Made by a program: the position numbers and the translations under genes. The notes under the pieces were generated by a model. That model did no database searches. It was given only the letters and a program-made list of their open reading frames with translations, and was not told the origin of the DNA. DNA of 64,000 nucleotides from Catajapyx aquilonaris. Lineage: Eukaryota. Positions 15,801 through 61,097 of the stretch are shown here, in pieces. The first letter of the stretch is position 1. Each line of letters opens with the position of its first letter. The stretch is taken from assembly GCA_000934665.2 (NCBI GenBank), contig JYFJ02000809.1, positions 1-64,000 on the forward strand, given 5' to 3'.

Positions 15801-16387
15801 TATTATCCCTCTCCTCTTCGACTCCCACGTTCAAGTGTCGCGTGCGTTTATGCCTTGTAATCGATGGAGGTGCTATGTGTAATCAGAAACCGTCCATGAC
15901 TTTCGTGTCGAGGAATGTGGCATCACCGGAAAAGGTATATGGCCACTTTAATGGGGTCTTTCCAAAATTTATGCACCGAATTTTCATCACATTGATCACG
16001 CATTTTTCCAGGCAGAACTGCTGATATGCCTGGTTTGCCGAAGACTCTATGATATTGCGAACGGAAATGGGGGGGCGGAATAATTCACCTGGCAGGCCTA
16101 GCTGTATAGCCAAAGGGGCAGCACACGGGGACAATTCTGCGCATTCTAATTGAATTAGCGCCAGACTCGTAGGCTGGTAATGCCAGATAATTTGCTTTCA
16201 ATGCCAGACTGAACAATGCCATGTTATTCTGGGAGATGCGCCGTAGGCTCGATTCATAATTTTCCTATTCAGTTGTGAAATACTGGACTGGTTTCAGACT
16301 GTTGATTAGTGCAACTACCATAGTGCATTGAAGGTGCATTAATGAATTGTCATTAACATTATGATTGATGATGATGGATTGTTTCAG

Positions 16388-19300
16388 CGTCCAGCGCGGC
16401 TGATGGACGCAGTGCAGGCTGGGCAACAGCAGGCGATTAGTCCTCAGCCGTCTTCTGGGTCCATCTCACCCAGGGACCCCAGTCAGCAGGTGCTGGAAAG
16501 TACTCTCACCTGCCCATCCTGCAGGGTCTCTGTACCTACCTCCAGTGGACGCAGAAGGAGGCTGTGCCCCTTTTGTGGTGCGACCTACAATGGGCACAGG
16601 AGCCACCACCACCATCATCACCACCACCACCCTGAAGAGGAGGAGGAGCAGTTGCCTCATGAGGACCCGGCTGACAACTTCCGATTGCCAGTCATTGAGC
16701 CGATGGTGGAGGCCACCTCTGGGAGCAGTCGGTACTCTGGAGGTTTTGTTCTCAACCGACTTGGAGGTGTCAGCTTGGGCCTGGCCTCCCTTTCCAATCT
16801 GTTCTTCAGGCCTGGTTCCAACACCTCCCTCACCTCATTGCCCCCAATTTCCAAGGTGATTGTCCATTTGACGGTGTGTGTGCAATTGCCTGGGCGTGTA
16901 TGGTTGTGTGACTTGATGTGGTTCTTGCAGCAAGATGCAGAGGACAAGTTCCTGTCCTTGTCGGACACGCCTACTCCAGTGCCTTCTGGCTACTCCAGGC
17001 GACAAGCACAAAGTCTGGATAACATTCCAGTCGCCACCGAAGAAGAGCTATCGCCTAGACCTAAATATCCTGTACGGGACAAGACCAGGGAGGAATTTCT
17101 GTGAGTGCATCCTTACATACTCATGCAAATAATGCCATTTTGTAGCAAAATTATGTAATATTTTCTGATATTGTGCTCTTCTTTTGCAGGAGGAATGTCC
17201 GTAGAGCATTGCAGACTGGGAACTACAGCGATCTGCAGCGATTTTATATGCAAACATTTGACTCTTATGCAGAGATTTGCGCCACATTTAAGGTACAGTA
17301 CAGTGTGAGTGTGCTAATGATTGTTGAATGCATTTATTTGGTACAAATTACTTTTTACAATAACAGCAAGATCCAGAGTGTGACGGGGCTCGTTTGGAGG
17401 ATCCCGGCTTGAAGATGGAATTTCTTTACGCCATCAATGATGCCCTAAAAGGCATGGTAAGTGGTCAAGAATGTCGTCTTCCCTATAACAATTTCTGGGT
17501 GTGTCTAACAAAATCATACTTTTCAGCCTTCCCTCATACATAAGACTGTAATGAAATCCATCATCAACGCTCTTCTGGAGGACAAAAACCGACTGTACCG
17601 CAAGGACCATGTCCGTGCTTTGTTCATTCTTCTCCAGAACCCAGTATTCGCTGCTCAGTCATCTTATACCATATTTGCACACCTCCTGCGCCAAATCACA
17701 AACTTGCCTAATTCAGACCACCAGCTGCTAGTCCATTGGTTCAAAATGTGAGTTTCTGAGCGGATGCATTCTGACAGTGTTATAATGAATAATCATATAT
17801 AGATTGGAGGTGGAAAAGCTTCGAATGATGGTGAGACACATCATCCAGTTTGTGTCTATAAGGCAGTTTCCCCCTGCTGACAAGAGCCTTCCGCCTCTCA
17901 GCAAAAGTCGCTGGTGGATACCTACTGCCATCCGAGTCCTTGCTCTTATAAGTGAGTCTGGAACTTATTGAAGTTTGTAAACATCCTTGATACCAATAGA
18001 CTTACAATTGACTGTTTCCAACAGATGCTGCAAATAACTCAAGTACGCCCAACCTGCTCCATTACACGGAATTCTACAACAGTGCCTTGGATCACCTGGA
18101 CCTTATGCAGGAGTACTTCAACTGGCAGAATCCAGAACGTCCAGGCCAGTTCTCCTACTGCCAGTACCCATTCATCCTAAGCATTGTTGCCAAGAGGATT
18201 ATCCTTACAAAGGATTCAGAGCAGCAGATGATTCTCACAGCCCGGAGATCTCTGGTTGCTAAAGTGGCCAGGCATCAGACACCCCAAATAGACATATTTT
18301 TTCTCAACATTAATGTCAGGAGATCCAACCTTGTTTCGGACTCTTTACATGAGGTTGGTTTGCAGCTCTGTGGGTTTTTGCTATGAGGAATTAAAATGGA
18401 TTTTATTATCATTATTGATAGATTGCAACGAAACAGAAGGACTTGAAGAAAAAGCTGAAGGTGTCTTTTGTCGGGGAGCCTGGACTGGACATGGGGGGAC
18501 TTACTAAGGAGTGGTTCCTATTGCTCATCAGGCAGATTTTTCAGGTAGGTGTTTCGGAGAACTTTCATGCACCAGCTATGCAATGAGGAAAAAAATTCCC
18601 ATTTATGTAGTAGCTATTACAAAATTAATATTATACTGGCTGTTGTAATATTTTCCAATAATTGATTTGTATAAATAATAATTTGAGAAGGCCACTAGTT
18701 CTTTCACAGTCTATATTTGTTTTTTACTTGCCATAGAAATACTGCTATCGATCTATGTTTGCAAATGCATGGCAATAAGGCACCATCCTGGTGCTATTAT
18801 TTTATTTGGAACATCAATAAGAGTTTATTACAGGCTCTGTCGGGCCTATATGGGTGCCATAAACTTACCAACCTTGCCCTTTTCATCATTTTGCCTCTTA
18901 TTATCCATAATGCAAAATGCTATTTTCTGCATTGCAGCCCGATTATGGCATGTTTGTTTACTACCCAAACTCTCGGTGCTACTGGTTCAGTACAGCCCAG
19001 GACGGGAATCTCCGAGAATACAACTTGATTGGTGTCTTGATGGGTCTGGCTGTGTATAATTCCACCATCCTTGACCTTCACTTCCCCTCCATCTGCTACA
19101 GGAAGCTTCTGGCTCCTCCTGTAGTGCCACCCTCATCTTCCTTGCCAGTTGGCATCGTCAAGGGACTAGCCATTGATGATCTTGCGGAGATCATGCCTGT
19201 AAGACCATGTTTATGATCTCATAAGAATGTGTCACCTATGTGCCAAGTATTGGTTTAGGAAAGACTAAGAGATGGTTCATTTTTGCAGATATTATATCAA

Positions 19301-21775: not shown

Positions 21776-27747
<5,972 letters not shown>

Positions 27748-28689
27748 CTTCTCAGAACAGAATTGCATATACATCCTTTCTATCCGTGCCTCGATATTTT
27801 TTATTTGTCGATAGCTACTGATTTTTCAATGATGTGTTCTTTTTTTCTTGTGATTGGGCGGTGCTTTATTGGAAAAAGGAACGGTCCGTTATGCTTTTCT
27901 TACTGTGCAATTCAGTGTCAATTAAGTGCATAATGGGTGACTTGTAAATATCCCTCACAAAAAAAGTATTGACGTAATAATTAACATTGCACATGATTCG
28001 GTAGATTTATTTTGGCCCATCCCACACATTTTCGAACATGCAAATAAGAAGCTTATGCCTTAATTTATGATGCTCAGGATCTCCCTCCCTGTGTAGTTCT
28101 GGTAACCTTTTTTCATACACGAAAACATGGGCAACTATGATGGTGGTGTTGAGCTTTGTTAGTGATTCTATGGCCACTTTTATGCTTATTTGTACTGGAG
28201 GGAAGTGGAAGGCTGTTGAGCTAAGCATTCCACCATGTGGACACCAGCATGTGACAGCCTGTGTACTGGAAACAATTTATCAATTAAAAAGTGGCTGTCT
28301 AAGTCAACCTTATTTATTTTGAAAATTCCTAGTCCATTTACATGTAGTACTTTTAGCATCAAGGAGCACTAATCTCTCTCCTGTCTATGAGTGCAGTATT
28401 TCAGTACTTATCCTGTTGAGTCCCTGCATACGTATAGATACCTACATATTTGTGCTCTGTGATTACATCTTGGCTGTAATTTTTTTTTTTTGTGCCTGGT
28501 AAGTAAGTGTTGTACAAAATCGTAAACTATGTACCTAGGCCAAGATCAATTCCAGATTGTCGAGCTGTGTCCCCCAAATTATGTTGCCAGATGGTCTTAG
28601 GTCTTGCATCAGGGGTATATTATAATAATAATTGTTCGTTTTTGTGAGAAAAGTTGACATTTTTTCAGATGTTTCTTTGTTTTAGCCAT

Positions 28690-29690
28690 GCACCATGCAC
28701 AGATAAGATAATCCACACCCAGATAATTGGGAGTAGTCTACAGTGTATTTCCATTAAACCTAAAAGATAAACATGTCAATGCTCTATGGCCAACCCTAAC
28801 GAATCTTCGTGTACGTGACCTACAGGTGGCTAGGAAGCTGTACTTCAGTTACATCGTCCCGATTTTATAGTACGCCTTCCCAATCTGGGGTACTTGATAC
28901 GTAGCAATTATGGAACAGGTTCAAAACTATTTCTTGAAAAAGTTTTTGAGTCTCCCTAAACACACAGCAGGTTTCTTTATTAGGCTGGAGACAGGCATCC
29001 CACATTTGGAAATTATGCTGGTGAAACAGACAATAAAAATTTATAAGAAGCTTGAAAACATTTTGGAAAATAAAATTCTGTTTGCTGCACACAAGTATGC
29101 GAAGAATGCCAAATTCGACTCCGCCCGCACTTTGCATAGAGATTGGTGGAATTTCGCCAATCAGCTGATGCCTATTACCGGGAATATTGCAGAGCTCTCA
29201 ATTATTCTGACCCGCTCCGAGCTGCTTGAGCAACTGACAGACTTCTGCTTCAGTCAAGATAGTGATTTACTAAAAAAGTCGACCACATATGCCCAATATT
29301 TTGCTACAAAAGATCTGAAAGAACAAGAAAAATACTGGTCATTCAACCTCCCTCTTGGCCCCCTGCGCACCTGGATCCGTTTACGAAGTGGCCCCTGATA
29401 CTTTTGGTTTAATGACGTTAAAATTCATTTTGAAGGACAAAACTGTGATTGGTGTAATCGAAATGTTGAATTTGATTTGTTTCATTTGTTGTTTCCTTGT
29501 CCGTATTTTGATATGCTCCGGAACCTACTATTGCAGGACTTACCCCATGTACCCCCAGACAAAAATTAGCGTATGCTCTGCTCAACCCTTCCAAAAAGTT
29601 AATTTTCAGCATGCACAACTTTTTTGTAAATGTGTCCAAAAGAATGGGGGTTGTAAATATGTAGATAGGTGGTGGGTGAAGAAAAAATTC
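28690..29690 (+). mobile_element. Decayed, 5'-truncated non-LTR retrotransposon (RT thumb plus C-terminal CCHC-type motif; RTE-X-like)
   Basis: One interrupted frame reads KLYFSYIVPIL*YAFPIWG..MEQVQNYFLKKFLSLP..FIRLETG..WIRLRSG..CDWCNRNVEFDLFHLLFPCP. A degenerate (Y)LGV motif lies near 28725; in-frame stops are present. Boundaries approximate. Confidence 0.75.
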
Positions 29691-30249: not shown

Positions 30250-30897
30250 ATTTTCAATGGTTTGTTGCAGGCTGACCTTTGACCTGAAAGGCCCTAATAT
30301 TAGGTTTTTGGTCTGGGGCCGGGCCCTACCTCGGTCTCCATCTGTCGGGTCTTTCGTAATGAGATTGTACAGAGCACAGTACATAGATATACAGTATATC
30401 TCTCGGTGTGAGGTAGTATGCCCCCTAGCCAAATGTAGTTGGCAGGTGTCAGTATGAATGTGACGTAGGCGAGTGGTCACCTCCTTGGGGTCATCAGGAC
30501 GGACATTCGGCATCGCTGTTTCGTGGCATTGCTCTATGGATTAATAAAATAATAAATCCCGACCCGCTTCTACTGTGGGTGGAGATGCGCATATCGTCGA
30601 CGCGGTTTTAGATTGGCAAATTTTTGTGTAAGCTTGGTCACCTTCCTGTCTCTTTGACTTTACATATTACCCCCTTTCCACCCCCGCCCTGCTACCCACC
30701 AGGACAGGCGGACTGCTACATTTGGCTACAGGCTATAGGGGCATACTACCTCACACCGAGAGATATACTGTTGCTCTGTACAATCTCATTACGAAAGACC
30801 CGACAGATGGAGACCGAGGTAGGGCCCGGCCCCAGACCAAAACCTAATATTAGGGCCTTTCAGGTCAAAGGTCAGCCTGCAACAAACCATTGAAAAT
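30250..30897. mobile_element. Foldback element / large MITE with near-identical TIRs of about 185 bp
   Basis: 30250-30439 is the reverse complement of 30716-30897 apart from small indels; the spacer of about 275 bp is non-coding; no clear TSD. Confidence 0.85.
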
Positions 30898-33800: not shown

Positions 33801-36377
33801 GCATTTTTGTATAAAAATGTGTAACGATTTTACAGAAAATTATTCAGGCTCATTTGGGGTAAGCTTCTGGCTTAAATTATTAATTAATAAGCAGTGCATG
33901 GCGGCCATGTTAAGACGGCTGTAATGATAGTGGCGGTCGTGCGTTGCCAGCAATGTAAATAAATCAGGCAGTAAAATGTAATCGCATCCTGTTCGCGGAG
34001 ACTTCAATGCTCATGAAGCCAGAAAAGAGAGACAGAAATGTGGTGAATCACCCTGATGTCCCCGTCCCGGATGTGGAGGCCCAAACCTGGCCCCCAGAAG
34101 AAACCAGCGATGTTGTCATCATCCTTGCGACCCCCGTGTCCGTCGTGTGTGGCCAACAACGGTGCCCAGAAGCTGCTGGACCACCCTCCTACCAACTTGT
34201 CATATTTATCTCTTCGGCATGACCCTTTTTTTTAATTCTTAAAAAAAAAAAAAGCTTCTGGACTTTGCACCATTTTGGTTCAAAATGGCGTCCGGAGTGA
34301 TCAGCTGATCCGGAGGAATTTCAAAGACGCATTGCCCAGGTGACGTATCGATGATGCCCCCCCGGAGGAATAAATATGCGACGGTGGGCGTCTCTTCGAT
34401 GCAGGAAGCCAAAAAGTATGCGTGCCAGCGTCAGCATCTTATCTCGCGGAAACGGCGCCGCTGTCATGGACGGCGCCTCAACGACCGACGCCGCCAAAAT
34501 AAGTTTCTAAACCCGGACGTGGGAAAGGTCTATTGGGGCACAGGGTCGGATTTTTTTTCGCTCTTCTGCGCACTTTAAAGTGATGGCCTCCCCAGGGCGA
34601 ATATAAGGCTTACACTAACTAAAAGAGCAACAGGTGTCAGACGTTATAACAATGTAGCTATACAAGTTCGTCTTTCAATTCGTCGTTTGATGGCGAATTG
34701 TTCATGGGTCGTGTGTGGACTTTCAATAATTCTGTATGATGTGGTGGTTCATTTTTCAATGTACGATCCCGGGTGGGCAAAATTAATTTCGCGGCCTGTA
34801 CGTGTCTGGTGTGGTCCACTCGCTCTGTATGTAATCAGTCTTTGATGTCACGGTGGTCTGCACACGGAATATACGTACACGGTGCTATACTCAGAATTGG
34901 GAATTCAGATGTGCAGTTCTCGGAGTAGGTATTACGTGCCACTATACATTTGTATAGCACAGTCACAGCATAGTATCGTCATGCTTCGTCATTATTTAAG
35001 AGCTCTACTATACGCGGTAAGAAATTATTAGAAACCATCCTTTGAATTCGGTTCTAATTCCTCTCGTCAGAAAGAACTGCGATGGAAACTGGCATTTCCC
35101 GATCCTTTAACGAAATTTCACCGGAGCTTCACAAAGTCCGGCCCGCACATCAGGTGGTCCACTTGTGGTGCAAAGTACGTTTCCCTCAAGCCTCATCGCA
35201 CTTGTCGGCTATTCTGTTTTGGATGAGGCTTTGCCTGTCAGGACCTATTCCGTAGCCTGTCGTCTACAGGATACACGTTTATTCACTTCCCATTTCGAAT
35301 GAAAATCCATGCCAAAAAATAAAAGAGAGGAGAGGGACGCTTATCATATATTCTCTTACATGACCTTTTAGGAGTCCACAAAATATTTCAGGAATTTTGC
35401 CTCAACAACATATTTTGCTGCCAAATTTTTAAATATAACAGACTGTTTTATGACAGTGAAATCGATAATCTTAAAACTCAGATTAGGAATGCCAGCGTAC
35501 AGTATCAAACAGTGGAAAAGGGAAGAAATCGTTTCTCTATATCTTGAAGCTCCACCACACCAGTGCAAACGTTTTTTTAAAAAAAGTCGCGTCTTATTTT
35601 GCAACAGAAAATATGTAACCTTCCCGCAAGCTGTGTATACTAATAGGTATCAAGAGGCACATAGTTTGCCAGCGTGTTTATATCATGTTGATTTACACAT
35701 ATAACGAAAAGCCGCTTTTATATTTGGGTCCTAAGGCAATACGAGAGCAATAAACAAGATCTCCCCGGTTGTTGTGACAAGGAACTAATTATTTATATCT
35801 AAGTATATCCCTCGCAGTGTTATCTTTTCCGTAAAGGAGAATGAAAGCAACAAAACTTAACGCCCCTCCATCTGTAAAACTCATTTTAGGCGAATAAATA
35901 GCCCCCCTTTATAGCCGGTCGTCTCACAAATAACCTTCTGGTACAAATAGCGTGCTAAAATAGCCTTCTGCAACTGGCAAGAAAGTTCCGGACGCGACAT
36001 TAGGTGTGAAAAATGAGCCCCATCCAGCCTCCCCCCCCCCNCCCCCCCCCCCGGACACCACCAGGTACTTTTTGATAGCGATTCGAGAAAGTGCCCATAA
36101 AGGGGCGACGCTATAACGTCGCTATGATTAAAACTATTGAATAGTGCTATAGGAACAATCGGCGCCAGACACATGAAGAATAATGCGAAATAAAAAGCAG
36201 AAGCTGAAGGACCCGCCCCTGCGTACCCAGGTAGCCAATTGTGCTGAAGATTTGTTGATGGGTCGTGTGAGGGATGTGTGGATGGGGAGGTTAGGTGGGT
36301 GGGTTGGGTGCGGGGGTGCACCTGAGCTCGCCTAATTAGTAAAGAGAAGGCCCACCCAGAGCCAGACATACATCGCC

Positions 36378-37971
36378 ATGGATCGGCCGCCAAGTCTCAT
36401 CTTCCTACACTTTCTCTTGCTGCTACTGGCCGAGGGCAACGGGGTCACTGCTCCAGGTATGGTTCACCATGCATGGTCCTAATTTTGAAGCAAAATTTTT
36501 TAGATTCAGACTATTGTCTATACAGGATTTCTTCTCCGGGAGGCTGATTCTGATGTTCCTGATCAGCTGGAGAGTCCTACCAACAACCCTGGTTGTTGTG
36601 TCCGACGTCCCAAGTCGATATCGTTGGGTTTCGGTAGGCAATTTGAGCATAACATGAATGCCTTGGGGATGATTTATTAGGACTGGATTCCTACACAGGG
36701 ACATCTGGAGAAGAAATCAGTGTGGACGTGGGGTCATGCCACCGCAGATGCGGTCCTCTTACCAATTCCCAGAGAGCTCACTTGGAAGCCCTTCTCAAGG
36801 CGGAACCGGACTTGGATCCCATTCAGGTACTAAGGCTCAGTTTTTTTGTGGTGTTTCCCTTTCCCGTGGGGGATTTTAAATAAAGAAAATGCCTCCAGAC
36901 ATCATCTGTCTGAATCTGCCGGGCATATCCGGTGTAATGCCGGTACCTTGTCTTCCACTAACCAAATTGGGATTGTCTGCCGTACTGTATGTGACCGTGT
37001 TATTCGCAGCTGTTTCGTCGATGGCAAGGGAACGACTCTTGTAGTGCCTGCGAAGCCGAGTCTGTACGGGTCGAGAGGAGGCACACTCCTTCTGGGCTGC
37101 ATGAGGTGCAAATAGCGGAGTCATGTGGATGTAAAGAGGCTCCGTTCGACTGCCACCGAGACTCCAGACCAGCACGGTTCTTCCCCGGTACGCCCTTCGA
37201 ACGTACCGTCGATACTGGACAGTGTCGAGGACCATGCTCCAGGACCTTGTGCCAGCCTACCAGAAACACCACTATCAGCATACCTGGACCTAATGGTAAA
37301 GTTATCACCGTCCATCATGTGCGTAGTCATATAATTGCCATTTCTTTGCAGGTGATGTGGCCATACCTGTCATCGAATCGTGCGGGTGTACGGGCAGTTG
37401 CTATAGGGTCAGTTGGTTTGAACATGTGTACGATTATGACGACGACGGGGGAAGGAGTCTCAAGGTAATGCAACTAACAGCAAGAGTAATATGTTCCTTC
37501 GGGAACTTTCACCTATAATGTAGCGGGTCTAAAAGCACTGATGGCTCTAATTTACTTTTTTTAAAGTACTAAGCTCTAAGCTACTTTCATAAAAGGGACA
37601 TTAAGCCAACGCAAGGTGACATAGCCTTTGGCCTAAGATTTTTAAAGTAAAGTGTGGGATAAAAGCAATTACGAACTATACTTTCAGGAAATAGACGTGG
37701 GTCGATGTATGGGAAGTTGCAGAGGAGGCAGAAGCTACAAGTGCGTTGCATGGTAAGCCTCGCTCAATATACTCGCAAAAAATAGGTCCACTCCAATGCC
37801 TTGTTTCCCCCCTTTTTTCCCAGGGATAAAGAGAACCCCGGGAAATGCGTATCGGGACTGTACTCGCGCATTTCTACGTGCGCTCCGTCTCGGTTCCGAG
37901 TCCATTCATATACCGCAGAAGACGGATCAGCCATGGAGATAGTAGCCGTCGCACAATGCAGTTGCCACTAA
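36378..37971 (+). CDS. pnhd: Pinhead: secreted cysteine-rich protein, 7 exons, 308 aa
   Basis: Exons 36378-36456, 36526-36633, 36699-36826, 37010-37295, 37352-37464, 37688-37752, 37824-37971 total 927 nt, all GT-AG and in phase. Signal peptide MDRPPSLIFLHFLLLLLAEG; CCVRRP; three D(V/T)GxCxxxC...CxC modules (VDVGSCHRRC, VDTGQCRGPC, IDVGRCMGSC); FFPGTPFE; lies directly upstream of ADMP. Confidence 0.88.
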
Positions 37972-38851
37972 AGCCTCTTGTGGGCATCAGCCTGATTTTT
38001 CTTCAATCCTGGGAAGCAAATCCTTATGGTGCAACATGTTTGCAGATTATTGCTATATAGTGGGTGGGTATTTTCGTAACTTGTGCTGTGTATTATTCCC
38101 AAATAAATTCGCCATGTTTGTATAAAACCGCCCTTGCTTGATTTAAAGCAAACTCATTTAAAAAATCTGAACTTGTTTGAGTTGGATGGTGTTCCCCTGA
38201 ATCTCGCAGACTGAACCAAAGTGGCGCAAACTCTGACAAAGTAAATGACAGGTGAACCCCCCCCCCACCCNCCCCCCCCGAGTGTCAGCACAAACAAAAT
38301 GTCAACAAACGAGGTCCCCTTCAAGCGTTGGCAGCATCCAACCTGTTTGGAATTTCAAGCATCCCAGGCGCGAGTTACAAATTGGCAGTCTTATGCAGTA
38401 GGCGTGGGGGCCCTCTCTGCTCTGCCTGGACGACCGCCAGCCGCCTCCAAACCGCACAAAAATTATTTCGAAACCAGAAAGTGAGGACCACACACTCAAA
38501 AATTTATTCATTTTCCAAAAAAGGGTAGTGGTTCATGTCACGAGTTTATCCGGAAGATGTATTAAAACAACAAGAAGAAAAGAAGTTTCGACCTTGGAGG
38601 TCGACCTCTCTTCACCAACCCGGACAACAAAATAATGTGGACTGGTTGGCACGCGCGACCTCCAGCACCCTCCTCCACACCATCCTCCTTCCTTCCATCC
38701 TCTTCCCATTTACGCCATTGGCCACATCAGAGCCCATATATCCGACCCCCCACACCTACCACCACGAACCTATATACATTCACACACATGAGTAGGAAAC
38801 CCCCTGTGAATAAGAAGCCAGAGTTTTGGGCGGCGCAGATCGGGTTAGGCC

Positions 38852-41505
38852 ATGCTGCTTCTTCTTCAGCTTCTTCTGGCGGTACTGGCCTCGTCGGAGG
38901 CCAGGGCCAGGCACCATCCGGAGGAACTTAATGACAAGGCGTTGGAGCAACTTTTGCAGGTAATTTATTGATATAGTGTGATGATACGAGTGAAACAAAA
39001 GGGGGCTGCTGACTCGTCATTTGCAAGCTTCACTGCCCTTAATTAGTCAGTATTGGACGTGCGTGGACCGGGGACTGAGTATGCAGAAATAACTGATGGA
39101 GTCTCTTTAATAGACGGCGAAGCAGGATTTTAAGCAGAATTATCGATGCGCCCAGCGTACTGTGCAAGCTGAATATGTGAAATGAACCTGCGGGTCGTTT
39201 TAATTATATAAAAAAACATTTGCATGCTCCGAAGAGCTCCTTCTGCAAATACACACTTAGCCGTTTGCCCTTTTCATGCTAAATGAAAAAATGGCTCTAT
39301 TTTAGAGTAGCTCATTCGTAATATCCGTAGGATGCCCTTTCATAATAACAAGCAGCCTAATATCGAATCTCAAGTGACACTTTAAAAATTAGTTGCACAG
39401 GGACTTTAACCAGTGTTTATTAGTTGCCTAATTTTCGCAACAACCAATAATTGCATGCATTTTAAGTCAATTGGTAGTTTCATATCTTTAATCTACAATT
39501 TTTAACAAAATTTGTACAATTGATACCCCTGATCCTGATTGGAGTAATTTAGTAAATAATGTGCAAGTAAACCTAGTTACTATCGTGCTTGAGCTACAGT
39601 TAAATTCAAAACTAGCCACCATCATCTCTGATCAAGCCTCATCCACCTGATGCAACACATATAAGATATGACGCGATCCAAACTATCCCATCATTAACGA
39701 GACCACCGGAACCTGACCTCCACTTCTGTCTCTCTCCACTATCAAATAACCCTTTGACCGCAGATACGTTTCACGTCCCGACAGGTGTTCGGGCTGCCGG
39801 AGCACATAACCCAGCACCGTCACCAAAGCCCACCCCAATTCATGCTGGACCTGTACAACACGATAGCCGACGAGGACGGGGTGACTCGGGCCAAGAACCC
39901 CTACGGGGCCACGGTCGTCAGAAGCTACATTGAAAGAGGCAAGTGCTCCCTTCCGCCGCACCAATTGTGCTACCCTCCTCATGTGACGATTCCTTCCCAC
40001 GCCGTCCTTCTTACAGACAACGTACACGACAACCACTTTTTCTTCAATCTGTCTGGATTGGAGGAGCACGAGACCATTCTGGAAGCTGAGTTACATCTCT
40101 ACAGATTGAAAGAGGCTCGGCCGTTGCACCACTCTCCAGAAGACTCGCCCTATTACCTAGTACGTATACACTACTGACAATGACGGATACATACAAGTAC
40201 CTCTAATGGACGTTAACGAGTCGTGCCAAATATTCGGCTGAAAATTGCGCTCGGTGTTCTTGCGGTTTTTAAAAATCAATTTTGCAGTTCGTCTCTTGCA
40301 GAACTTCATTAATGTGGGTGCCAGAGCCAGCTGACGGGCATTCGAAGGGGGTTTTTTTTTAAAGTTCCGTGTCTGCCCTGTGTGGTACTTAAAGTTTGGT
40401 GCAAATAGCTTGTGAAGTGGTTCGCACGGCCAATTGTTGGGGGTGTACCGCACAAATTGTAACCTGTGGCTCATGTGTATGATCGCAGTTGCGGGTGTAC
40501 CAAGTACTGGAGGATGCACCCCTGAATGTTCCGGACGCGCATCGCCTCCTTGCGGTACACTACGTCGAGTCCAAGTCACCGGGATGGGAAGTATTCAACG
40601 TGAAGGCGGCCGTGACGGAATGGAGAGAAAGTATCCGACCCAATCTGGGCTTGCTGGTGACTGCCTCGACCTTGTGGGAGAACCAAGTGCAGGTCCGGTT
40701 CGCCAGGCAGAACCACCACCACAACAGCAAGCAGCCCATACTGGTTCTGTTCGATGACGACCAGTACCAGCAGGTGCCTACTACCACACCCGTACCCACA
40801 CTCGATGCCAGACTACGTAAGTGGTGCTTGTCCTCAACTTTCTTTGAACTTCCCGGACTTGACGAATAGTTTTAACGTTCAGGTTCTCGGCCGTACCACC
40901 ATACCCTCCTACGTGAGAGCGAGTGGAACGAGGTTGAGATCGGGGACCGAAAACGTCGGAAGCGCCAGCAATCGTCGGAAGACGAGGAGGAAACGACGGA
41001 CACACCCACTGTCATCCCTCCTCCTACTAATGCCACCACCACCACAACCACTACCACCGAGGAACCTCAGAGGTCTGAAGAATGCACCAGGCACGACATG
41101 CAGGTTAGCACACTCTGACGCTCCAACGTCCCCAATACAGGTCGCTGATTAGCTAAAGGCGACATCATGGTTTTAAATGCATTTGTGACACCTTCCTCCA
41201 ATTTGTTTCCCTGCCAGGTGAGCTTCGAGTCTATCGGATGGGAGTGGATCATAGCCCCGCGCGGCTACAACGCGTTCGAGTGCCGCGGTTCCTGCAACTT
41301 CCCATTGGGCCAGCAAAGTCGGCCGACCAACCACGCCACGGTGCAGAGCATCGTGCACGAGCTGCGTCTTCATTCTCTAGTGCGTCTCCCATGCTGCGTG
41401 CCGCATAAACTACTCTCCTTGTCCTTGCTCTACTATGATGAGCACAACAATGTCGTGCTTAAGCAGTACGAAGACATGGTGGCCGACTCTTGTGCTTGCC
41501 ATTGA
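38852..41505 (+). CDS. admp: Anti-dorsalizing morphogenetic protein (BMP/TGF-beta family), 6 exons, 413 aa
   Basis: Exons 38852-38959, 39785-39938, 40017-40159, 40489-40816, 40883-41103, 41218-41505. Signal peptide; prodomain PPQFMLDLYNTIADEDGVT; furin site RKRRKR; 7-Cys domain with ADMP-type FPLGQQSRPTNHATVQSIV and NVVLKQYEDMVADSCACH. Confidence 0.92.
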
Positions 41506-43452
41506 TGTGATTCCAACTCGGATGATTATGATGTTGTCACTCTATTGTTATTAATGTAGACTCCACGCATGGTACACGCGGAGGATGAGTGCTGCTGGGA
41601 GACCAATAGAGACGCCAAACGATGCCTTTGTGTGTCTTGATTCGACGCCGCTTCAAGACCAGATTACTCAACGTGGTGTCTCCATTCTTGTACTCTGCAA
41701 GCGTATCAATGAAGTTTTATTTACAGCCCCGGTGTATTTTTTTGACCATTATTGTAATAGCCTTGTGGTGTATAACGGTATGAAGCTATTCATGTAAACA
41801 GCTAGGCATCAATAATATTCTTGAACGTGTCAAGCGGCATACTTGCGTGCATGGTGTGTATCTACGCAGTTTTTCATATTAATGGGCCCATCACGACGGT
41901 TGGCGGTTCACCATAATGAAGTTTTGAACATTTTTGGCGTACGAAATTTACGATGATATTGTGCTCGGTAAACATTCCTGAATCCGCTGCATTCGCTATA
42001 GTTTTCAGCTCAGCCCGTACACCCACGCACCGTAATAACATTACTCCAAGCAATGTGCCTGTACTGTACAACGTTAAAAAAAAAATTAAGCCTCTCACGT
42101 GGGATATTCTATTCGATAATTTTCTCCTAACTTTTGGACTGGAGGTGTGTTTCGAATAATGGGATTACCTGAAACCCAATAATCTGTTCACTCAGTGTAA
42201 CATGAACGCACTTTTATCAGGCCCATCATTCTTGCAAGTAAAAGTTAAGGAACATTATGCAGTAACTTGATATATCGCGTTACTATGACAAAACCAGCTA
42301 ATTCCGACAATATTTTTTCTGATTAAAAAGTGCTGCTTACTTTATAGCTTTAGCATGCCGGGTGCGAATCTGTTTTGTTTCAATTTTCTACCTCCTAATT
42401 GGATACTTTGAGCTTGTGAAAGTGGTGTTTTTTCCAGACAAGGTAAAGATCCTGCAGTCAACACAAAATTCTTCCTCTCCATGAAGATGAAACAACTTGA
42501 CATTACAACTGATGACGATAACGGCACGATAGTAGTATGAAGAAACACATTGTACAGTATAAGTGGAATGAATTATTAGGCCACTTTTACTTTCAAGAAG
42601 AAGGTTGTAGGTTGTGTCACTCATAAAAATTACATTAATTTCATTAATTACATTAATGTTGCATAATAAGAGAATATCTTGTTGCACTCTGCTCTTAGGC
42701 TGGGGGTTCTCTATACTGAGGTTACCAGTATATGTGAATGAAGAATAGTAAATCATCAAGAACAAGTGGATTATCATTTTTGTTAATATTGTTGGTAACA
42801 ATAACAAACAATTAATAAGTATAGGCTCAACCACTTGTTCAGGATTTGCTATCAATCACACACCCCACCTTACGACACGTATTATTGTTTTACAAGTTTC
42901 CGAGGCATGGGTCATCTTCCCAGCTAACATTATTGTTGCATCGGATACATAGAGACACTCTTAATTGCTGCCCTCTATTATGCAAATGGTAAGTCATTTT
43001 TATTAATTGTTACTGTTCGTCTCTAGGTTGCACCATTCAATTGACGATATATTATTCGTCATTATTATTAATTGTTACCAACAATAAATAACAAGGACAA
43101 ATCTCACTTTGGGAGTCTGGTGCAGATCCTGACTCCGAGTGTTTTTTTACAGAGAAAATATCCTAGGAAAATAACATACTCGCCTGTTGATGAAACATCT
43201 GCTGATTATCCTTGCAGCCAAAATAAAGAATCGCTGCAAGTTCAGCTAGGTATGTTAACTAATATAGCTATTGTAAAATATTAAAAAACACTATTATCAT
43301 GATATTTCAGCACCGAATGACGCACAATAGCGATATCACCACAAAGCTAACCTGAAATAATGGGGCTCATTGTCATTGAAGTAAATGAAACACCCATCAC
43401 CAGGTAACAGCATGTGAAATGTATTCCGTTACAAGATGACGGAGAACACAAT

Positions 43453-45864
43453 ATGCGGTGCTGGGTCACCTGTATGATCGCCTGTATGATTTATTTACAC
43501 AGTGTGGTCGTACTAGTAGCTCAAGGTAAAGTGTACCCTATTTATCCAGAATTTACATGTACAGGTAAGTACTTTCGACTCAGTTTTTGCCATATTTATA
43601 GTTATTCTAGTTGATTATGTTGATTTAGGCTTCATGTCGGACATAATTGAATTGCAATTCTAGTTTTTTTTCTGGTGGATAAAACGGATCCTACTGGTTA
43701 TGCCACTCCTAGGATGCCACCGGGATTGTTGCCTGACTCGCAGGATAGGCTCTGTCGATGGCAATTTTTGTTGGAATATTGCATCCTATACAACATTAAA
43801 TCGCACTTTTAACATTTGTCCTCGCCAGAAATATGGCAGTGACGCCCATCACTTACATGCCAAAAGTGTCAAAACCAGTTTTTCACATTAACCACGCACT
43901 GGCAATGCTCTTGTAAATCACCAACGATTTCCCATATTTTAACAGCAGACATGACAGGCGCAGACCACGTAGAAATGTCAGACTACAGCTCAGCTCACCT
44001 GGCCGGACTAGCCGACGAAGAGATAGAGAACGTCGTCGTCATTCACATTCCGACTGTAAGTCACACGTAGGCTTCCACGAGATCCCAAAAGAATCCTCGT
44101 GTTAATCGCCTTTTATTTCTAGGCGTCTCCGGTGCCACCTAAGCCTCGAAAACGTGCCACCACTGTGAGAGTAAGTCCCCTGCAGGGATATCAGAAACCA
44201 AGCTGACTTTTTTTTAGTGACAGTTATTTCTCCGCATGATATAGACCACACTGGCATCTCCCGAAAAACGAAGGGGAAACTCTGATTTATTCGAGGATCT
44301 GATCAAGAGTAAAACATTAGACATACTCAGGCACGAGAATGAACTCGAAGAATTGGATGAAATTTATGACCGCGTTGAGGACCTGGAACAGCGTGTTAAG
44401 AACGACGAGAAGAAGAATGATGTGCCTGCTGGAAAATCTGCGAACGGCGTGTACTCTAAAAGTTGGTGTGATTACAGTAATTAATGGGGGAAGTTAATTA
44501 ATATTTTTGACGTTGTTTTGCTGATATGTTCCAGACACTAAGGAGATAAATTCTATTAAGAAGTCGAGTGGCACGTCTACAGTGGGGATTGTGCTCGTAT
44601 TTCTGTTCTGCTCTACTATCCTCGGAGTAACAGCGTGCTTAATATTCGTAGGAAGGTCAGTGTTACTACCCAAGTTTATTACTGAGGAGGGTAATATTAT
44701 GTGCACATATTAGGTGTCTGCCAGGTGTTCTCTGTGTATCCACATATGACCAATAGAGGACCCTTTCATATTCAGATGCCATTTGGTTAGGCTAATTGCA
44801 GACATGACCTTTTACATTACAAATGAATGTACAAAATTGCGACTCTTATGTTTAAAGAACAATTCATACCGGTATGTCTTTTCAAGTATTTTTCTGACTC
44901 GATCACCAGCAATACTTCAAGTAATTCCAAACTCAATTTCGATCTGCACTTCAAGCTTCAAATATGTATGCTACCAGACAGTTTTACATTAAGCTGCCGG
45001 CGCGTTAGAGAAGTAGAAAGTTGGAGAGACAATCCGATTGTCAAAGTAGAACATGACATGGGCCCATTTTGATTAAATCCGATTATCGCAGACAAAGAGA
45101 CATCAGCGACCTGGACACGAAATGATCATTTACCTACCATGAATATACTCAAAAAGTTTATCAGTATCATAACTGAACAATAAACTGCGCCAATTTTCCC
45201 TTGCTTATGTCTGAAAAAGTAGACAATATACCCTAATATTAGAAGTTACCGGATAATACAATATTTAAAAATTTGACCAGCCTACACATAATTTTGGTCT
45301 ACATTTTCTTCTCTCAGGCCAAAAAAGACAACAGGAAGTGAGAATTCCCAACAGCAAACAGAAGAGCTGGAGTCCATCCTGACCAGCAGCCCTTCCCAGC
45401 ATACGACCCCCTGCGCATCAGCCCCCTGCGCAGTAGCCCCCTGCGCAGCAGTCCCCTACGCAGCAGTCCCCTGCGACTGCCCTTCCAAGACCACAAACGC
45501 ATGGTGTCAAACAACAGACTTACCCGTAGTAGAGAAGAAGCGATCAGGCCAAATCAAGCACACCAGGAGAGTGTACGGAGCCGTTTCCAAGTACAACACC
45601 GGTGAGTGGTATCTCCGTGTAATCCGTCGGTTGAGTTGACATTTCTTTGTCCTTTCTCGGGCAGATGATTGGATTGACAGGGATAAGTTCTCAGAGACGA
45701 TCATCAGGAACACTCGCCTCAAGATGGTCCCCAGATCCGTCTCAAGTAACGAGGAAGCCGATGACAATGAGGAAGTGCACATTTACACTCGCTCAGGTGT
45801 CACCGACCCGTTCCTGGACCAGATATGCCCTCCCACGTCGTCGTCTTCCAGCAGCGACGATTGA
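43453..45864 (+). CDS. Uncharacterised type I single-pass membrane protein (about 7 exons, 350-363 aa)
   Basis: Exons 43453-43564 (or -43525), 43946-44055, 44123-44170, 44245-44461, 44535-44655, 45318-45601, 45665-45864; every junction is GT-AG and in phase. Hydrophobic N-terminus, short coiled coil (ELEELDEIYDRVEDLEQRVK), TM segment VGIVLVFLFCSTILGVTACLIFVG followed by RRPKK. The 5' exon structure is uncertain. Confidence 0.7.
45407..45477 (+). repeat. 15-bp coding tandem repeat, about 5 copies (PCASA/PCAVA/PCAAV/PYAAV)
   Basis: CCCTGCGCAGCAGTC-like units inside exon 45318-45601. Confidence 0.85.
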
Positions 45865-48695
45865 TTCTCGGAGGATATTAATCACGGAGGCGGATGTAAT
45901 TAAAAAGGACGAAGGAAAACAGTCACCCCTGAAGTAATCGAGTCAGGTCTATTGTGCCAGCTCTCGCCATTTGTAAGAGGTGGATGCCAACCAATCAATA
46001 TCAGCTGCTTCTATTCATTGTCTATATAAACTCTTCCCTATGTGGATTAAAAGTGTTGAGATGATTGGAAAGTCGCTAGATGATGGGGAGGTTCAGCTGA
46101 ATGAGGCACACATCAGAATTCCGAGTGTTACTGGCTGTGTCTGCACAGAGGAGTTCCTTTTTAAAAAATAATTCAAACATGCATTACTATTTACTCTGAG
46201 GTTACCATAATACCTTTTGTCTCCAGTAAAATTGGAAGGCGCAAAAACACATTATTTCCTTAACGTACGTACTGATGGAAATGGAATAATACCGAAAGCG
46301 CATCCAGCATCTCGAAACACAATCCCCATTTTCCTGGGCGAGAAAAGGAATAGATATCACCCAAGGCGTTTCCTTCTTATTGCCTTCTGTATATGCGTCA
46401 ATATTCTCCACTAAGGGAGGCAGCTCGATTCATATTCTGCGAGAGGAAATGTCCGTGTGTGAAAATCTGCGACACCGGAGCAGCATGCTTGGCAAAGTCT
46501 GCGAGACCTGCGGCTGCTTTTCTAAGATAAGGCAAAAATCGCCTCGAGGGTGTTTACTAGTCGGGTTACTCTATATCCAAGTATACGAAAAGGCTTACTT
46601 TAATACCGCAGCGAGAATTTAGCCCAGAAAAATCAGCTTCCCTGAACTGTGTCATTCCTGTTACCTTGTTGGTACAGCCAGTATGTGCACAGTTCAAACT
46701 TCAAAGATATAACAAGTGAGTTATAGTATTCAAACAGAATTCGTGAATATCACGGTAAGAGGCTAAATATAAGTTTTAATTATTCACTTTTCAATTAATA
46801 GTTAAGTGAAAAACTGCGATAGAGCCTCTAGAAGAATTGGCACGTACAAACGGCTGCCTTATGATGTATTCACGAGCAGCCAGATACTGTACAGTACACT
46901 GGCGCCATATAATCAACTCTGCTTCGAGGACTTAATTAGTTGAAAAAACTGGTATGGATGCACGTGTGAGCACGTGTGAGCAAACATAGAGAGGCGTAGG
47001 CCTTAATAGTTACTAAGGTCTATGCACACACAGGCTATATTGATCGGGAGACTGCAATAACGAGTGTCAAGTGCCGCGTGAAATGCGAATTCCTGGGACT
47101 GTACTTACATTCAGTTTCACCTCAAAGGCGAGAGAACTGCAGAAAACAAATTGGGATCCACTCAACTCACTCCCTTACCCAGATTGCCAAGTCACTTTTA
47201 GTGGCTTAATTAGCCCTATTCCATTATGATCGTCTCTCGTAAAGGGCGTTTCATAATGATTGAGATAAATGTCTAGCTGAACTCTAGCTGGTATACAATG
47301 AACACATTTGAGCATTCTATCGAAATAATGATGGGCTTCAAAACGATATCCTGTCAGGTATGCATCCATCCGACTTTGCTCTTTGCGAAGCATAGGTGTT
47401 ACTATAAAATTGTAAAATTCTAAAATAATTTTGTAAGAATCATCATGAAACACCCTGTACTTAATTTCCAGGAAGCCTCCAGCTCCTTCGTCGTTGTCCC
47501 CCCCCCCCTCCCCCTCCCATCACCTGACGTCCGTTATTAATAACACCAGCTGACATTTCTGTGTTGACACCGATTTAGAGCGAGCATAGGTGAGGAGCCA
47601 TTTACAGAGACATCAATACGGATCCTCCGAGTGGTATGGCAGACCAACTCCGGTACAGTGTTATTGGGCCCCCTGGGACTCGGCCCATCTGGTCGCCCTG
47701 CAGCGCTCCATTAGCGATATGTCAGTATAATCTCTCGAGGCACGCGGAGAAAAATACCCCCACATTAATTCTTTCTGTTTGCCAAGGTCGTGTCCGGGAC
47801 GCGGAAGTGACTCAATCCATTGTCGACTGGGGGGGTTCAGGAGTGTATCATAAGTTCGAAACTTGATTGCACGAAAGACCTTCGAGTACCTGAAAATATT
47901 ACACATTTGGATTGTAGTGTACACACTAAGTGGTCAACACGCGATTTAAAAACGAGGAACTACTTTCGCCACAGTGCATTTGGCGGAGCGATATAAAGTT
48001 TCGAAGTTGGTATGCTGATTGGAGCGACGACCGCACACCCACGCTCCTAATTGGTCGAGCCTCTCATGTTGTATTTACCCGCACCTAATTAGGCAGTTAT
48101 ATTTTTGATGTGTCGCGTTACACACGTGTATTACATTATATTGACGTGACAAATTAAATAGCGTGGACGGTTGATAAACAAGTCGGACGCGTTTCCACAC
48201 CCACAGCCTGCGAAAACATTTTGCATAAAATAACTCTATCAACGCGACTCTGTGTCAATAGCCTACTCTCTTAGGGACTCACGCTGGTTGCCTAGAAAAT
48301 TATAACATGCATATGTAGCTAAGCAGCATTCGGCAAATGGGCACCTACGTCAATTTCAGATGAATATTTTAACATGGTCCCTTTTTATGCCCTTTTGTAT
48401 GAAGAAGCGAACAAAGGGCGTTACGAATGGCTGCATTTTGTTGTCACAATTATAGACAGAAAGAGATGGATTTATCAACGTTGCACAGCCTTTATATGCA
48501 TCAGTGACGACGCGACGCGACGCCTCCTGCGTCAAATTCTTTGCGCACGTGGAGAACGGCTGTGACACTACAATAGGCAGCACCTCCTCCTAGATCAAGA
48601 TGATTAGGGTACTGCCATTCAGAAAACGTCTATACACGAAAGCAGGCAGCCAAGTTCCCGAATTCAAGTATACCGGTACAGTATATTATTTTATA

Positions 48696-60200: not shown

Positions 60201-61097
60201 GCACCTCTACTCTTGATACTCTCGTACACCACAGGAGTTCACCGTAAAGTTTATGCGAATCATCCAAAAACACCCTGTGCATTACATATCTCGCACATTT
60301 TCCATCGGGAAGTTCAATCTTATCGACCGACAACTCTTATCACTACACTTTCATTTAGCCTATCGCCAATTGCATTATAAATTCTACTACGCTATAAATA
60401 ACAATGGCCTGCCTTTTTACTGCTTCTCTGCTATTACTTAAAGCCTTTTTCTCTGGAAACCACACAGGCTATAGCTTTCATGCCTGCACTGTTATTTAAT
60501 TTTGAAGTCCAAATGTCCTTAACCCTGTAAGAATATGGGCCATACTCGTGTTTGACTACGTATGCAGGGGAATTTACAATCGCTCACATTCCCTTTGTAA
60601 CGGACCATGAAAGTAACCCCGCATCACATGATACAAATCGTCGTTACAAACGGAACTCGCCTGATGCAATACGTCTGTCAACAGCAACAAAAGGGTGGTA
60701 TACTCCACTTTGTCCAAATGGAGAGGGTAAACTTGCAATCCAGGATTTGGTACGAATAGAGGGGACATAAAATTCGACCCAACCTTGCGTGGTCCTCTTG
60801 TTCCTCTGAAGTTCCCTCCTGGCCCTGCGAGCATCTGCGTCTCGCGTGGTCCTCCGCGCATGCGCTCCAAGGTGGGACGCTATCTTGGCGTGTACCACGC
60901 CGACCGCCATGCTTGGTATAACGTAATGCAAGAGCAGTGTGACTCCTGCGTAGGCGCATCTGCTGGCATGAGAAGGCCATCTCTCGACACACACTTCGTA
61001 CAGTACTATCTCCCTAACAGCCACTTTCTCCACCCGTTGAAACAGAACCAGCGGAAGGGTCACCATGGCCGACAGACCCCACAGTAGAATCAGACAC
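57239..61097 (-). CDS. Neuropeptide Y/F receptor-like rhodopsin-class GPCR, TM4-TM7 and C-tail (partial; 5' exons not found in the window)
   Basis: Exons 61097-60784, 57728-57494, 57437-57239 are in phase. Motifs LYEVCVERWP (ECL2), VFGVSWLPL (TM6), CHVLAMSSAATNPVLYGWLNTNFRREF (TM7/helix 8), and Cys residues after helix 8. Confidence 0.88.
59358..59712 (-). mobile_element. tRNA-derived SINE with 8-bp TSD, in a GPCR intron
   Basis: Minus-strand head GGGGAGGTGTAGATGGCCGAGATGGTAA with B box GGTTCGATCCCC; core GACATTGCACTTGCAC (59512-59527, reverse); short A tail; TSD AAGATGGA at 59350-59357 and 59713-59720. Confidence 0.88.

What the first reader, a model, noticed from the sequence alone, without database searches (positions are those of the whole stretch)
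36378..41505. Compact Pinhead-ADMP tandem cassette in an invertebrate genome
Seen: a 7-exon, 308-aa secreted Cys-rich gene, largely hidden from the ORF track, ends only 880 bp upstream of an ADMP ATG on the same strand; its AATAAA is at about 38102. Established: Pinhead-Admp linkage is ancient, and in Ciona the two genes are expressed mutually exclusively through a cis-acting mechanism during dorsoventral BMP patterning; Drosophila lacks ADMP. Inference: this lineage keeps the module intact, and the very short spacer would favour enhancer competition or transcriptional interference. The system is known elsewhere, so any novelty is lineage-specific.
Basis: partly seen in the sequence, partly recalled or inferred. 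Interest (0 to 1): 0.8.

Follow-up and report, generated by a model that had tools for sequence, protein, structure and literature searches.

The report
Intact Pinhead-ADMP gene pair in arthropod
Two intact, spliced genes for secreted body-axis proteins, Pinhead and the BMP-type signal ADMP, lie head to tail 880 bases apart in a crustacean- or hexapod-type arthropod; Pinhead likely binds and damps ADMP as in frogs, but this gene pair was already described from arthropods to vertebrates, so the finding is real but ordinary.

Summary
Verdict: real, correctly identified, ordinary. The upstream gene has 7 exons (36378-37971; 308 aa, 22 Cys) and the downstream gene 6 exons (38852-41505; 413 aa), 880 bp apart on the + strand. 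Spliced contigs of one public run skip all 11 predicted introns, one of them GC-AG. The upstream protein matches Saccoglossus 'pinhead-like protein' over its length (31% of 292 columns, E 9e-54). The ligand is 60-65% identical to two named ADMPs against 47-48% to this genome's BMP2/4 and BMP5-8; grouping with those is rejected (AU p 0.010, 0.024). Trees point to a pancrustacean. The tandem is published for 'arthropods to vertebrates' (PMC6989304), three of five arthropod pairs checked have consecutive accessions, and this scan found the pair before on other DNA. A complex prediction with Daphnia stand-ins gave weak support for binding (0.50, best control 0.03). Interest 0.2.

The parts
36378..37971 (+). 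Pinhead gene, coding span, 7 exons: 36378-36456, 36526-36633, 36699-36826, 37010-37295, 37352-37464, 37688-37752, 37824-37971; 308 aa, 22 Cys, hydrophobic N-terminus
   Evidence: Open spliced frame; 6 of 6 introns skipped by contigs of run X1; full-length match to Saccoglossus pinhead-like protein, whose reciprocal tblastn hits exons 2-7; single copy found in the genome with exon 4
38102..38107 (+). AATAAA, likely poly(A) signal of Pinhead
   Evidence: In the sequence; the Pinhead contig covers up to 38113, which is compatible but cannot show an RNA end
37972..38851 (.). 880-bp stop-to-start spacer (48% GC): Pinhead 3' UTR, intergenic DNA and ADMP 5' region; one N in a C-run at 38271
   Evidence: no similarity to the rest of the window
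38771..38776 (+). TATATA, possible TATA box of ADMP (inferred)
   Evidence: Motif scan (3 TATAWA sites on the + strand of the spacer); lies 25 bases before the first base covered by the ADMP contig, 38796. Weak: contigs cannot show a start
38852..41505 (+). ADMP gene, coding span, 6 exons: 38852-38959, 39785-39938, 40017-40159, 40489-40816, 40883-41103, 41218-41505; 413 aa: signal-like N-terminus, TGF-beta propeptide, basic site RKRRKR at 267-272, Thr-rich linker, 7-Cys mature domain
   Evidence: 5 of 5 introns skipped by one 1525-nt contig covering 38796-41732; orthology
39939..40016 (+). ADMP intron 2, a 78-bp GC-AG intron
   Evidence: Sequence; contig joint 39936-40015 skips 78 with 2 letters of slack, which gives GC..AG and keeps the frame
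36161..36170 (+). GGCGCC followed by AGAC, 217 bases before the Pinhead ATG: candidate BMP/Smad-responsive element (untested)
   Evidence: 5 GGCGCC in the window against 5.8 expected, so no enrichment. Zebrafish Smad1 binds a GGCGCC in the admp enhancer and a GC-rich site in the pinhead enhancer (PMC6989304, passage)

Best explanation
The locus holds two intact, spliced genes, Pinhead upstream and ADMP downstream, whose secreted products likely form a ligand-and-trap pair in which Pinhead binds the ADMP dimer and damps its BMP signal. Shown: both gene structures, their splicing, their family membership and their head-to-tail order. Inferred from the BMP family: the ADMP precursor is secreted, cut by a furin-type protease at RKRRKR (267-272), and its 7-Cys domain dimerises and signals through BMP receptors to Mad/Smad1. 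Inferred from Xenopus and Ciona, with weak structural support: uncut, multi-cystine-knot Pinhead sequesters ADMP outside the cell. Inferred and untested: the order is kept because regulatory DNA for ADMP lies in or near Pinhead, giving complementary expression (Pinhead where BMP is high, ADMP on the Chordin side). Identity about 0.97; binding with damping about 0.6; a Ciona-type cis switch here about 0.25.
For: Splicing: 11 of 11 introns in contigs of run X1. Pinhead: 104 relatives at E<=0.001 from exon 4; each of the 22 Cys is matched by Cys in 27 to 45 of 45 relatives of 250-430 aa; two relatives are named pinhead-like (P0129 Saccoglossus, P0142 Apostichopus), 31% over 292 and 268 columns. 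ADMP: PF00688 and PF00019; exon 6 scores 145 and 130 bits to the named Ptychodera and Hofstenia ADMPs against 108 for BMP3, 105 for BMP6 and 99 for BMP2 in the PDB; the genome has separate BMP2/4 (L001), BMP5-8 (L002, L003) and BMP9/10 (L008) genes; AU tests reject window+L001 (p 0.010) and window+L002+L003 (p 0.024). Linkage elsewhere: consecutive accessions in Daphnia galeata, Timema monikensis and T. tahoe. Binding: Pinhead binds and inhibits Admp but not BMP4 in Xenopus, and binding was reported in Ciona (PMC8188501, passages and Discussion). Complex prediction with Daphnia galeata stand-ins: weak support, 0.50 against best control 0.03; runs agree in at least 34% of contacts, partner pLDDT at least 59; the mark was reached by 51 of 78 solved and 2 of 108 mismatched pairs, but at 0.60 or under by only 5 of those 78 and by all 4 mismatches that passed (of 180); on eukaryotes 39 of 65 solved and 2 of 126 unrelated pairs. 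A Chordin-like gene appears to be present (L071; motif recalled).
Against: In zebrafish Pinhead acts as a BMP-like agonist redundant with Admp, and both are repressed by BMP (PMC6989304, section 9 and passages), so the sign of the effect is context dependent. Single knock-down of ADMP in Gryllus gave no patterning defect (PMC8051952). The complex was predicted for Daphnia proteins, not this species', without alignments, and a pass at 0.50 is more often wrong than right unless likely beforehand. The ADMP clade is weakly supported on the mature domain alone (SH-aLRT 58; 96/98 but with three activin-type long branches inside). No BMP3 sequence was in any tree. No spatial or stage information exists for run X1, whose kind is not on record.
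Confidence: 0.6

Rival explanations
1. One reading: Pinhead transcription itself switches ADMP off in the same cell, by taking its enhancer or by polymerase running through the ADMP promoter, and the short spacer strengthens this. It can hold together with the trap model.
For: Mutually exclusive expression by a cis-acting mechanism in Ciona (as described in PMC6989304; the original, Imai et al. 2012, was not read). AATAAA lies only 750 bases before the ADMP ATG. The pair is tight relative to its upstream flank: the Arp1 contig piece ends at 28273, 8.1 kb before the Pinhead ATG. In zebrafish the admp enhancer lies at -633 to -210, a distance that here would fall inside the spacer.
Against: Nothing in the sequence tests it. 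No Mad/Medea silencer consensus in the window (0 found, 0.27 expected); no GGCGYC in the spacer or ADMP intron 1. In Xenopus, Pinhead protein plus Chordin raises admp, at odds with repression. An earlier, unchecked note reports a 609-base spacer in another arthropod, so a short spacer is not special to this lineage.
Confidence: 0.25
2. Pinhead here is a BMP-like agonist that backs up ADMP (zebrafish seesaw): either gene rises when the other is lost, keeping BMP levels stable.
For: Shown in zebrafish (PMC6989304; PMC8034876). Redundancy would explain the silent single knock-down of ADMP in Gryllus.
Against: Pinhead has no TGF-beta Pfam match (0 of 22 relatives; exons 3 and 4) and is not furin-processed in Xenopus; Xenopus data show antagonism.
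Confidence: 0.15
3. The adjacency is inherited but now inert in this lineage: the genes have their own promoters and unrelated, perhaps post-embryonic, roles.
For: ADMP is dispensable in some insects (absent from Drosophila and Tribolium; PMC4218986) and its knock-down is silent in Gryllus. No enriched BMP-response motif was found.
Against: Order kept across arthropods and vertebrates, and both genes lost together in mammals (PMC8188501); 3 of 5 arthropod pairs have consecutive accessions; both genes are intact here.
Confidence: 0.15
4. Misidentification: the ligand is BMP2/4, BMP5-8 or BMP3, or the upstream gene is another cystine-knot protein.
For: Most database hits of the ligand carry automatic names such as 'BMP2-like' or 'BMP7-like'; the best PDB hit is BMP3; the Atlas 'Pinhead' hit scored only 0.88.
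Against: No PDB hit is named ADMP, and named ADMPs score far higher (145, 130 vs 108 bits); the genome's own BMP2/4 and BMP5-8 lie elsewhere and are rejected as sisters; the Pinhead match is full length with its Cys pattern.
Confidence: 0.02

Closest known systems
Pinhead-Admp tandem of Ciona intestinalis (Imai et al. 2012, Science 337:964; not read, seen only as described in PMC6989304 and PMC8188501)
   Same: Pinhead immediately upstream of Admp; both secreted; described as conserved from arthropods to vertebrates.
   Different: Mutually exclusive expression, cis-acting repression and protein binding were shown in Ciona; none is shown here. The Ciona spacer length was not seen.
Xenopus Pnhd-Admp antagonism (PMC8188501)
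   Same: Same two families; multi-cystine-knot, unprocessed Pinhead; binding weakly predicted for arthropod orthologues.
   Different: Binding and pSmad1 inhibition are measured in the frog only; arthropods have no notochord and an inverted axis.
Zebrafish pinhead-admp seesaw (PMC6989304)
   Same: Tandem genes; GC-rich Smad sites a few hundred bases upstream of pinhead, as a candidate here at 36161.
   Different: There Pinhead is a BMP-like agonist and Smad1 binding is shown; here the motif is unenriched and untested.
Arthropod pairs in databases: Daphnia galeata CAH0111355.1/CAH0111354.1, Timema monikensis CAD7423192.1/CAD7423191.1, T. tahoe CAD7461225.1/CAD7461226.1
   Same: Closest relatives of both proteins (Pinhead 37-47% in best local alignments, ADMP mature domain up to 72-73%); consecutive accessions imply adjacency.
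   Different: Unnamed in the databases; orientation and spacer lengths could not be read.

Membership tests
Pinhead | Full-length similarity to a named Pinhead | tested here: met
   31% over 292 columns, E 9e-54 to Saccoglossus pinhead-like NP_001161631.1; 31% over 268 to Apostichopus pinhead-like. No chordate protein named Pinhead was retrieved; amphioxus and Styela relatives are unnamed.
Pinhead | Conserved cysteine pattern | tested here: met
   22 of 22 Cys align with Cys in 27-45 of 45 relatives; one further column (Cys in 26 of 45) is Ala here.
Pinhead | N-terminal signal peptide, no membrane anchor | tested here: met
   Hydropathy peak 3.05 from residue 7, at most 1.63 after residue 40; hydropathy only, no signal-peptide predictor.
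Pinhead | Cystine-knot fold | tested here: inconclusive
   Model of the termite orthologue P0102 (pLDDT 81.8, strands only): top matches are cystine-knot proteins (artemin, Gremlin-1, NBL1, Norrin) but best Z 4.9 and no Foldseek E<=0.001.
Pinhead | Binds ADMP | tested here: inconclusive
   Weak support with Daphnia stand-ins: 0.50, best control 0.03 (counts in Best explanation).
ADMP | Signal peptide, TGF-beta propeptide, basic cleavage site, 7-Cys mature domain | tested here: met
   PF00688 E 1e-11 and 2.5e-10, PF00019 E 1.3e-30; RKRRKR at 267-272 and 7 Cys; hydropathy.
ADMP | Groups with ADMPs, not BMP2/4 or BMP5-8 | tested here: met
   65% and 60% to named ADMPs vs 48%, 47%, 47% to L001, L002, L003; AU p 0.010 and 0.024 against the alternatives; the ADMP side of the best tree has support 58 only.
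ADMP | Closer to ADMP than to BMP3 | tested here: met
   By score only: 145 and 130 bits vs 108 bits for BMP3; no BMP3 sequence in the trees.
ADMP | Expressed on the BMP-low side and repressed by BMP signalling | not testable with these tools
   No spatial expression data.
Pinhead-Admp tandem | Pinhead immediately upstream of Admp on the same strand | tested here: met
   880 bp stop to start, both on +.
Ciona-type cis-repression module | Mutually exclusive expression caused in cis by Pinhead transcription | not testable with these tools
   Needs embryos, allele-level imaging or reporters; motif scans were uninformative.

The most novel reading that the evidence does not exclude
The chordate cis switch is alive in this arthropod: BMP/Mad turns Pinhead on through the GGCGCC-AGAC element at 36161, Pinhead transcription silences ADMP across a spacer of under 900 bases, and Pinhead protein traps what ADMP remains. 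The whole two-gene circuit would fit in about 6 kb and give the first test of the switch in a protostome, making it ancestral to bilaterians.
Probability: 0.2. Interest if true: 0.55.

Novelty: new member of a known kind. Interest (0 to 1): 0.2.

Why it matters
Little by itself: it adds one more arthropod to a pair known since 2012. Its use is practical. Why the two genes stay adjacent is known from one ascidian study, and whether Pinhead blocks or mimics ADMP is disputed between frog and fish. None of the 24 papers listed for 'pinhead' and 'admp' is, by title, a study in an arthropod. A locus of about 6 kb with verified exons is small enough for a single reporter construct.

Tried and rejected
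Word-index search with Pinhead exon 4 against longer proteins: 0 of 18 candidates passed; the HMMER search found the family. Pfam knows no Pinhead family. Atlas: 'Pinhead' second at 0.88, a lead only. Run search: no RNA holder listed; the one holder, X1, has no kind on record. No X1 contig covers 38114-38795 or bridges the two genes, and none but a 233-nt one at 42076-42308 covers 41733-46000; holes in contigs prove nothing about read-through. A joint 34256-39198 at depth 3.2 falls on A/T runs with no shared repeat and was set aside as an artefact. Spacer lengths in relatives: 0 of 55 metagenome loci with an ADMP-like match held Pinhead, but most have too little DNA upstream, so this is uninformative. 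Motifs: Mad/Medea silencer 0 (0.27 expected), GGCGCC 5 (5.8), activating element 1 (0.87, at 34472), Zelda CAGGTAG 6 (5.5; one at 36228): none enriched (consensus patterns recalled). The TATA and Inr scans were faulty and were repeated. CHRD domain search found nothing, but a Chordin-like locus came up by VWC. The careful Pinhead tree did not finish; the quick tree is used. No solved Pinhead relative (best E 0.093, von Willebrand factor). Paper searches with no relevant hit: pinhead+microsynteny+BMP 0, pnhd+arthropod 1 unrelated, pinhead+cystine knot+Nematostella 0, ADMP+crustacean+expression+dorsoventral 4, none by title an expression study in a crustacean.
Full report
Observation. From the sequence I built both gene models by coordinates; the first attempt had off-by-one boundaries, corrected. 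The upstream gene has seven exons from 36378 to 37971, six GT-AG introns of 56-223 bp, and reads as 308 aa with 22 Cys. The downstream gene has six exons from 38852 to 41505 and reads as 413 aa; its second intron (39939-40016) is GC-AG. Both ATGs have an in-frame stop shortly upstream (read). Stop to start is 880 bp and AATAAA is at 38102. An N inside a C-run at 38271 leaves the spacer length uncertain by a few bases.

Splicing. One public run holds the stretch (X1, kind not on record). Its contigs skip all 11 predicted introns at the predicted places, with no differing letters listed. Two contigs cover Pinhead up to 38113 and one of 1525 nt covers ADMP from 38796 to 41732. Intron-free contigs of both genes are what spliced RNA gives; contigs cannot show starts, ends, strand or level, and this is one run of one study.

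The upstream gene is Pinhead. Exon 4 found 104 relatives at E<=0.001 among 1.84 billion representatives. Thirty proteins were looked up for names; the Pinhead-type ones come from Daphnia, Artemia, a barnacle, stick insects, a termite, a wasp, shrimps, a millipede, horseshoe crab, an ostracod, a springtail, amphioxus, an ascidian and echinoderms. Two carry the name pinhead-like (Saccoglossus NP_001161631.1, Apostichopus PIK45925.1). The spliced protein matches them at 31% over 292 and 268 columns (E 9e-54, 3e-39), and the Saccoglossus protein hits exons 2-7 of the window. In an alignment with the 45 of 104 relatives that are 250-430 aa long, each of the 22 Cys is matched in 27-45 rows. A model of the termite orthologue consists of strands only (pLDDT 81.8) and its best matches are cystine-knot proteins, though weakly (best Z 4.9). 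Exon 4 finds one copy in the genome.

The downstream gene is ADMP. It has the TGF-beta propeptide and mature domains, a hydrophobic N-terminus, RKRRKR at 267-272 and seven Cys in the mature part. Among 93 relatives (of 118 candidates), the two named ADMPs score 145 and 130 bits; the best PDB matches, BMP3, BMP6 and BMP2, score 108, 105 and 99. Most other hits carry automatic 'BMP2-like' or 'BMP7-like' names. The genome gives 13 TGF-beta matches, among them separate BMP2/4 (L001), two BMP5-8 (L002, L003) and BMP9/10 (L008) genes by best PDB match. The ligand is 57-73% identical to 31 of the 33 database relatives that I put in the tree (33 of 93; the other two 50-51%) and 37-48% to nine paralogues of its own genome. 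In that tree it lies in a 96/98 clade with both named ADMPs, which however also draws in three activin-type long branches. With most long branches left out (22 rows) the ADMP side is recovered with support 58 only, while AU tests reject pairing with L001 (p 0.010) or with L002+L003 (p 0.024). No BMP3 sequence was in a tree.

Lineage. The window is the start of contig C317 of a 285.6-Mb assembly. Full-length ADMP falls with crustaceans and insects (SH-aLRT 95, quick tree of 21 rows), and Pinhead in a 98-supported set of 16 pancrustacean rows plus the long-branched Styela, outside the 99-supported insect group (quick tree). A crustacean or early-branching hexapod is the likely source; I did not narrow it further.

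Linkage is known. PMC6989304 (passages; section 9; passages) states that pinhead lies immediately upstream of admp from arthropods to vertebrates and that Ciona shows cis-acting, mutually exclusive expression. PMC8188501 (passages; Discussion) reports binding and antagonism in Xenopus and joint loss in mammals. ADMP is reported in Nasonia and Apis and absent from Drosophila and Tribolium (PMC4218986, passages), in Gryllus (PMC8051952, passages), and in crustaceans and chelicerates (PMC4600745, passages). PMC11226491, PMC8034876 and PMC8753366 were seen as passages. Imai et al. 2012 was not read, and no supplement was opened. In my own data 3 of 5 arthropod pairs have consecutive accessions. 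Earlier notes of this scan list the pair in other genomes, one with a 609-base spacer and two with duplicated clusters (unchecked).

Mechanism. By family knowledge ADMP is a furin-cut, dimeric BMP ligand. For Pinhead the literature is split between trap (frog) and back-up ligand (fish). I ran one complex prediction on Daphnia galeata stand-ins (ADMP residues 303-408, two copies; Pinhead 66-338): weak support, 0.50 against a best control of 0.03, runs agreeing in at least 34% of contacts, partner pLDDT at least 59. The mark was reached by 51 of 78 solved and 2 of 108 mismatched pairs, but at 0.60 or under by only 5 of those 78 and by all 4 mismatches that passed of 180; on eukaryotes by 39 of 65 solved and 2 of 126 unrelated pairs. 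With binding already shown in two chordates, I put the trap model at 0.6. A Chordin-like locus (L071; recognised from a recalled motif) suggests that the usual axis partner is present.

The cis idea. The pair is tight compared with its upstream flank: the nearest gene identified, Arp1, ends about 8.1 kb before Pinhead. The zebrafish admp enhancer distance would fall inside the spacer. But nothing here tests competition or interference. A TATATA lies at 38771 and a GGCGCC-AGAC at 36161; the motif counts for the window equal chance. ADMP knock-down alone is silent in Gryllus, so even an axis role is open.

Verdict. Observation confirmed; identification supported; regulatory inference untested. 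New member of a known kind, interest 0.2. The boldest reading not excluded, a conserved cis switch in a 6-kb protostome locus, has probability about 0.2 and would deserve 0.55.

Noticed in passing
P0109, P0122, P0205: Pinhead-like proteins occur in the sponge Oscarella pearsei and in sea anemones (Actinia, Actinostola) and branch apart from the bilaterian ones, so the family likely predates Bilateria. One paper search found no mention. Whether they sit beside an ADMP-like gene is unknown.
   Followed up: partly
window 22769-28273 (+): Actin-family gene, by its sequence Arp1/centractin (name recalled; Pfam Actin E 2e-44), the nearest identified upstream neighbour; X1 covers its last exon 27603-28273.
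   Followed up: partly
window 30250-30897: Long inverted repeats (arms of 71, 76 and 34 nt, 89-100% complementary), like a miniature transposon.
   Followed up: no
window 60644-61216 (-): Exon of a rhodopsin-family G-protein-coupled receptor (7tm_1, E 2e-6).
   Followed up: no
L002, L003, L010/L012, L013 (own genome): The genome has two BMP5-8 genes, L003 with only one Cys where the family has the CC pair, and two strongly diverged TGF-beta genes (L010/L012, L013) that I did not assign.
   Followed up: partly
L071 and L079 (own genome): VWC repeats resembling Chordin/Sog (L071) and a Chordin-like protein (L079), recognised from recalled motifs; the CHRD profile found nothing.
   Followed up: partly
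window 40985-41070 (+): ADMP has an acidic, Thr-rich linker of about 38 residues between the basic cleavage site and the first Cys, with a possible N-glycosylation site at residue 294; it would stay on the mature ligand.
   Followed up: no
window 36228-36234: CAGGTAG (Zelda-type site, recalled) 150 bases before the Pinhead ATG; 6 in the window against 5.5 expected.
   Followed up: yes
window 42076-42308: A 233-nt contig of run X1 at depth 2.6, 344 bases beyond the ADMP contig; perhaps a longer 3' UTR or noise.
   Followed up: no
window 717-3435, 14085-17104, 28898-29398: ORFs of 143-252 aa with no convincing Pfam match, likely exons of other genes or transposon remnants.
   Followed up: no
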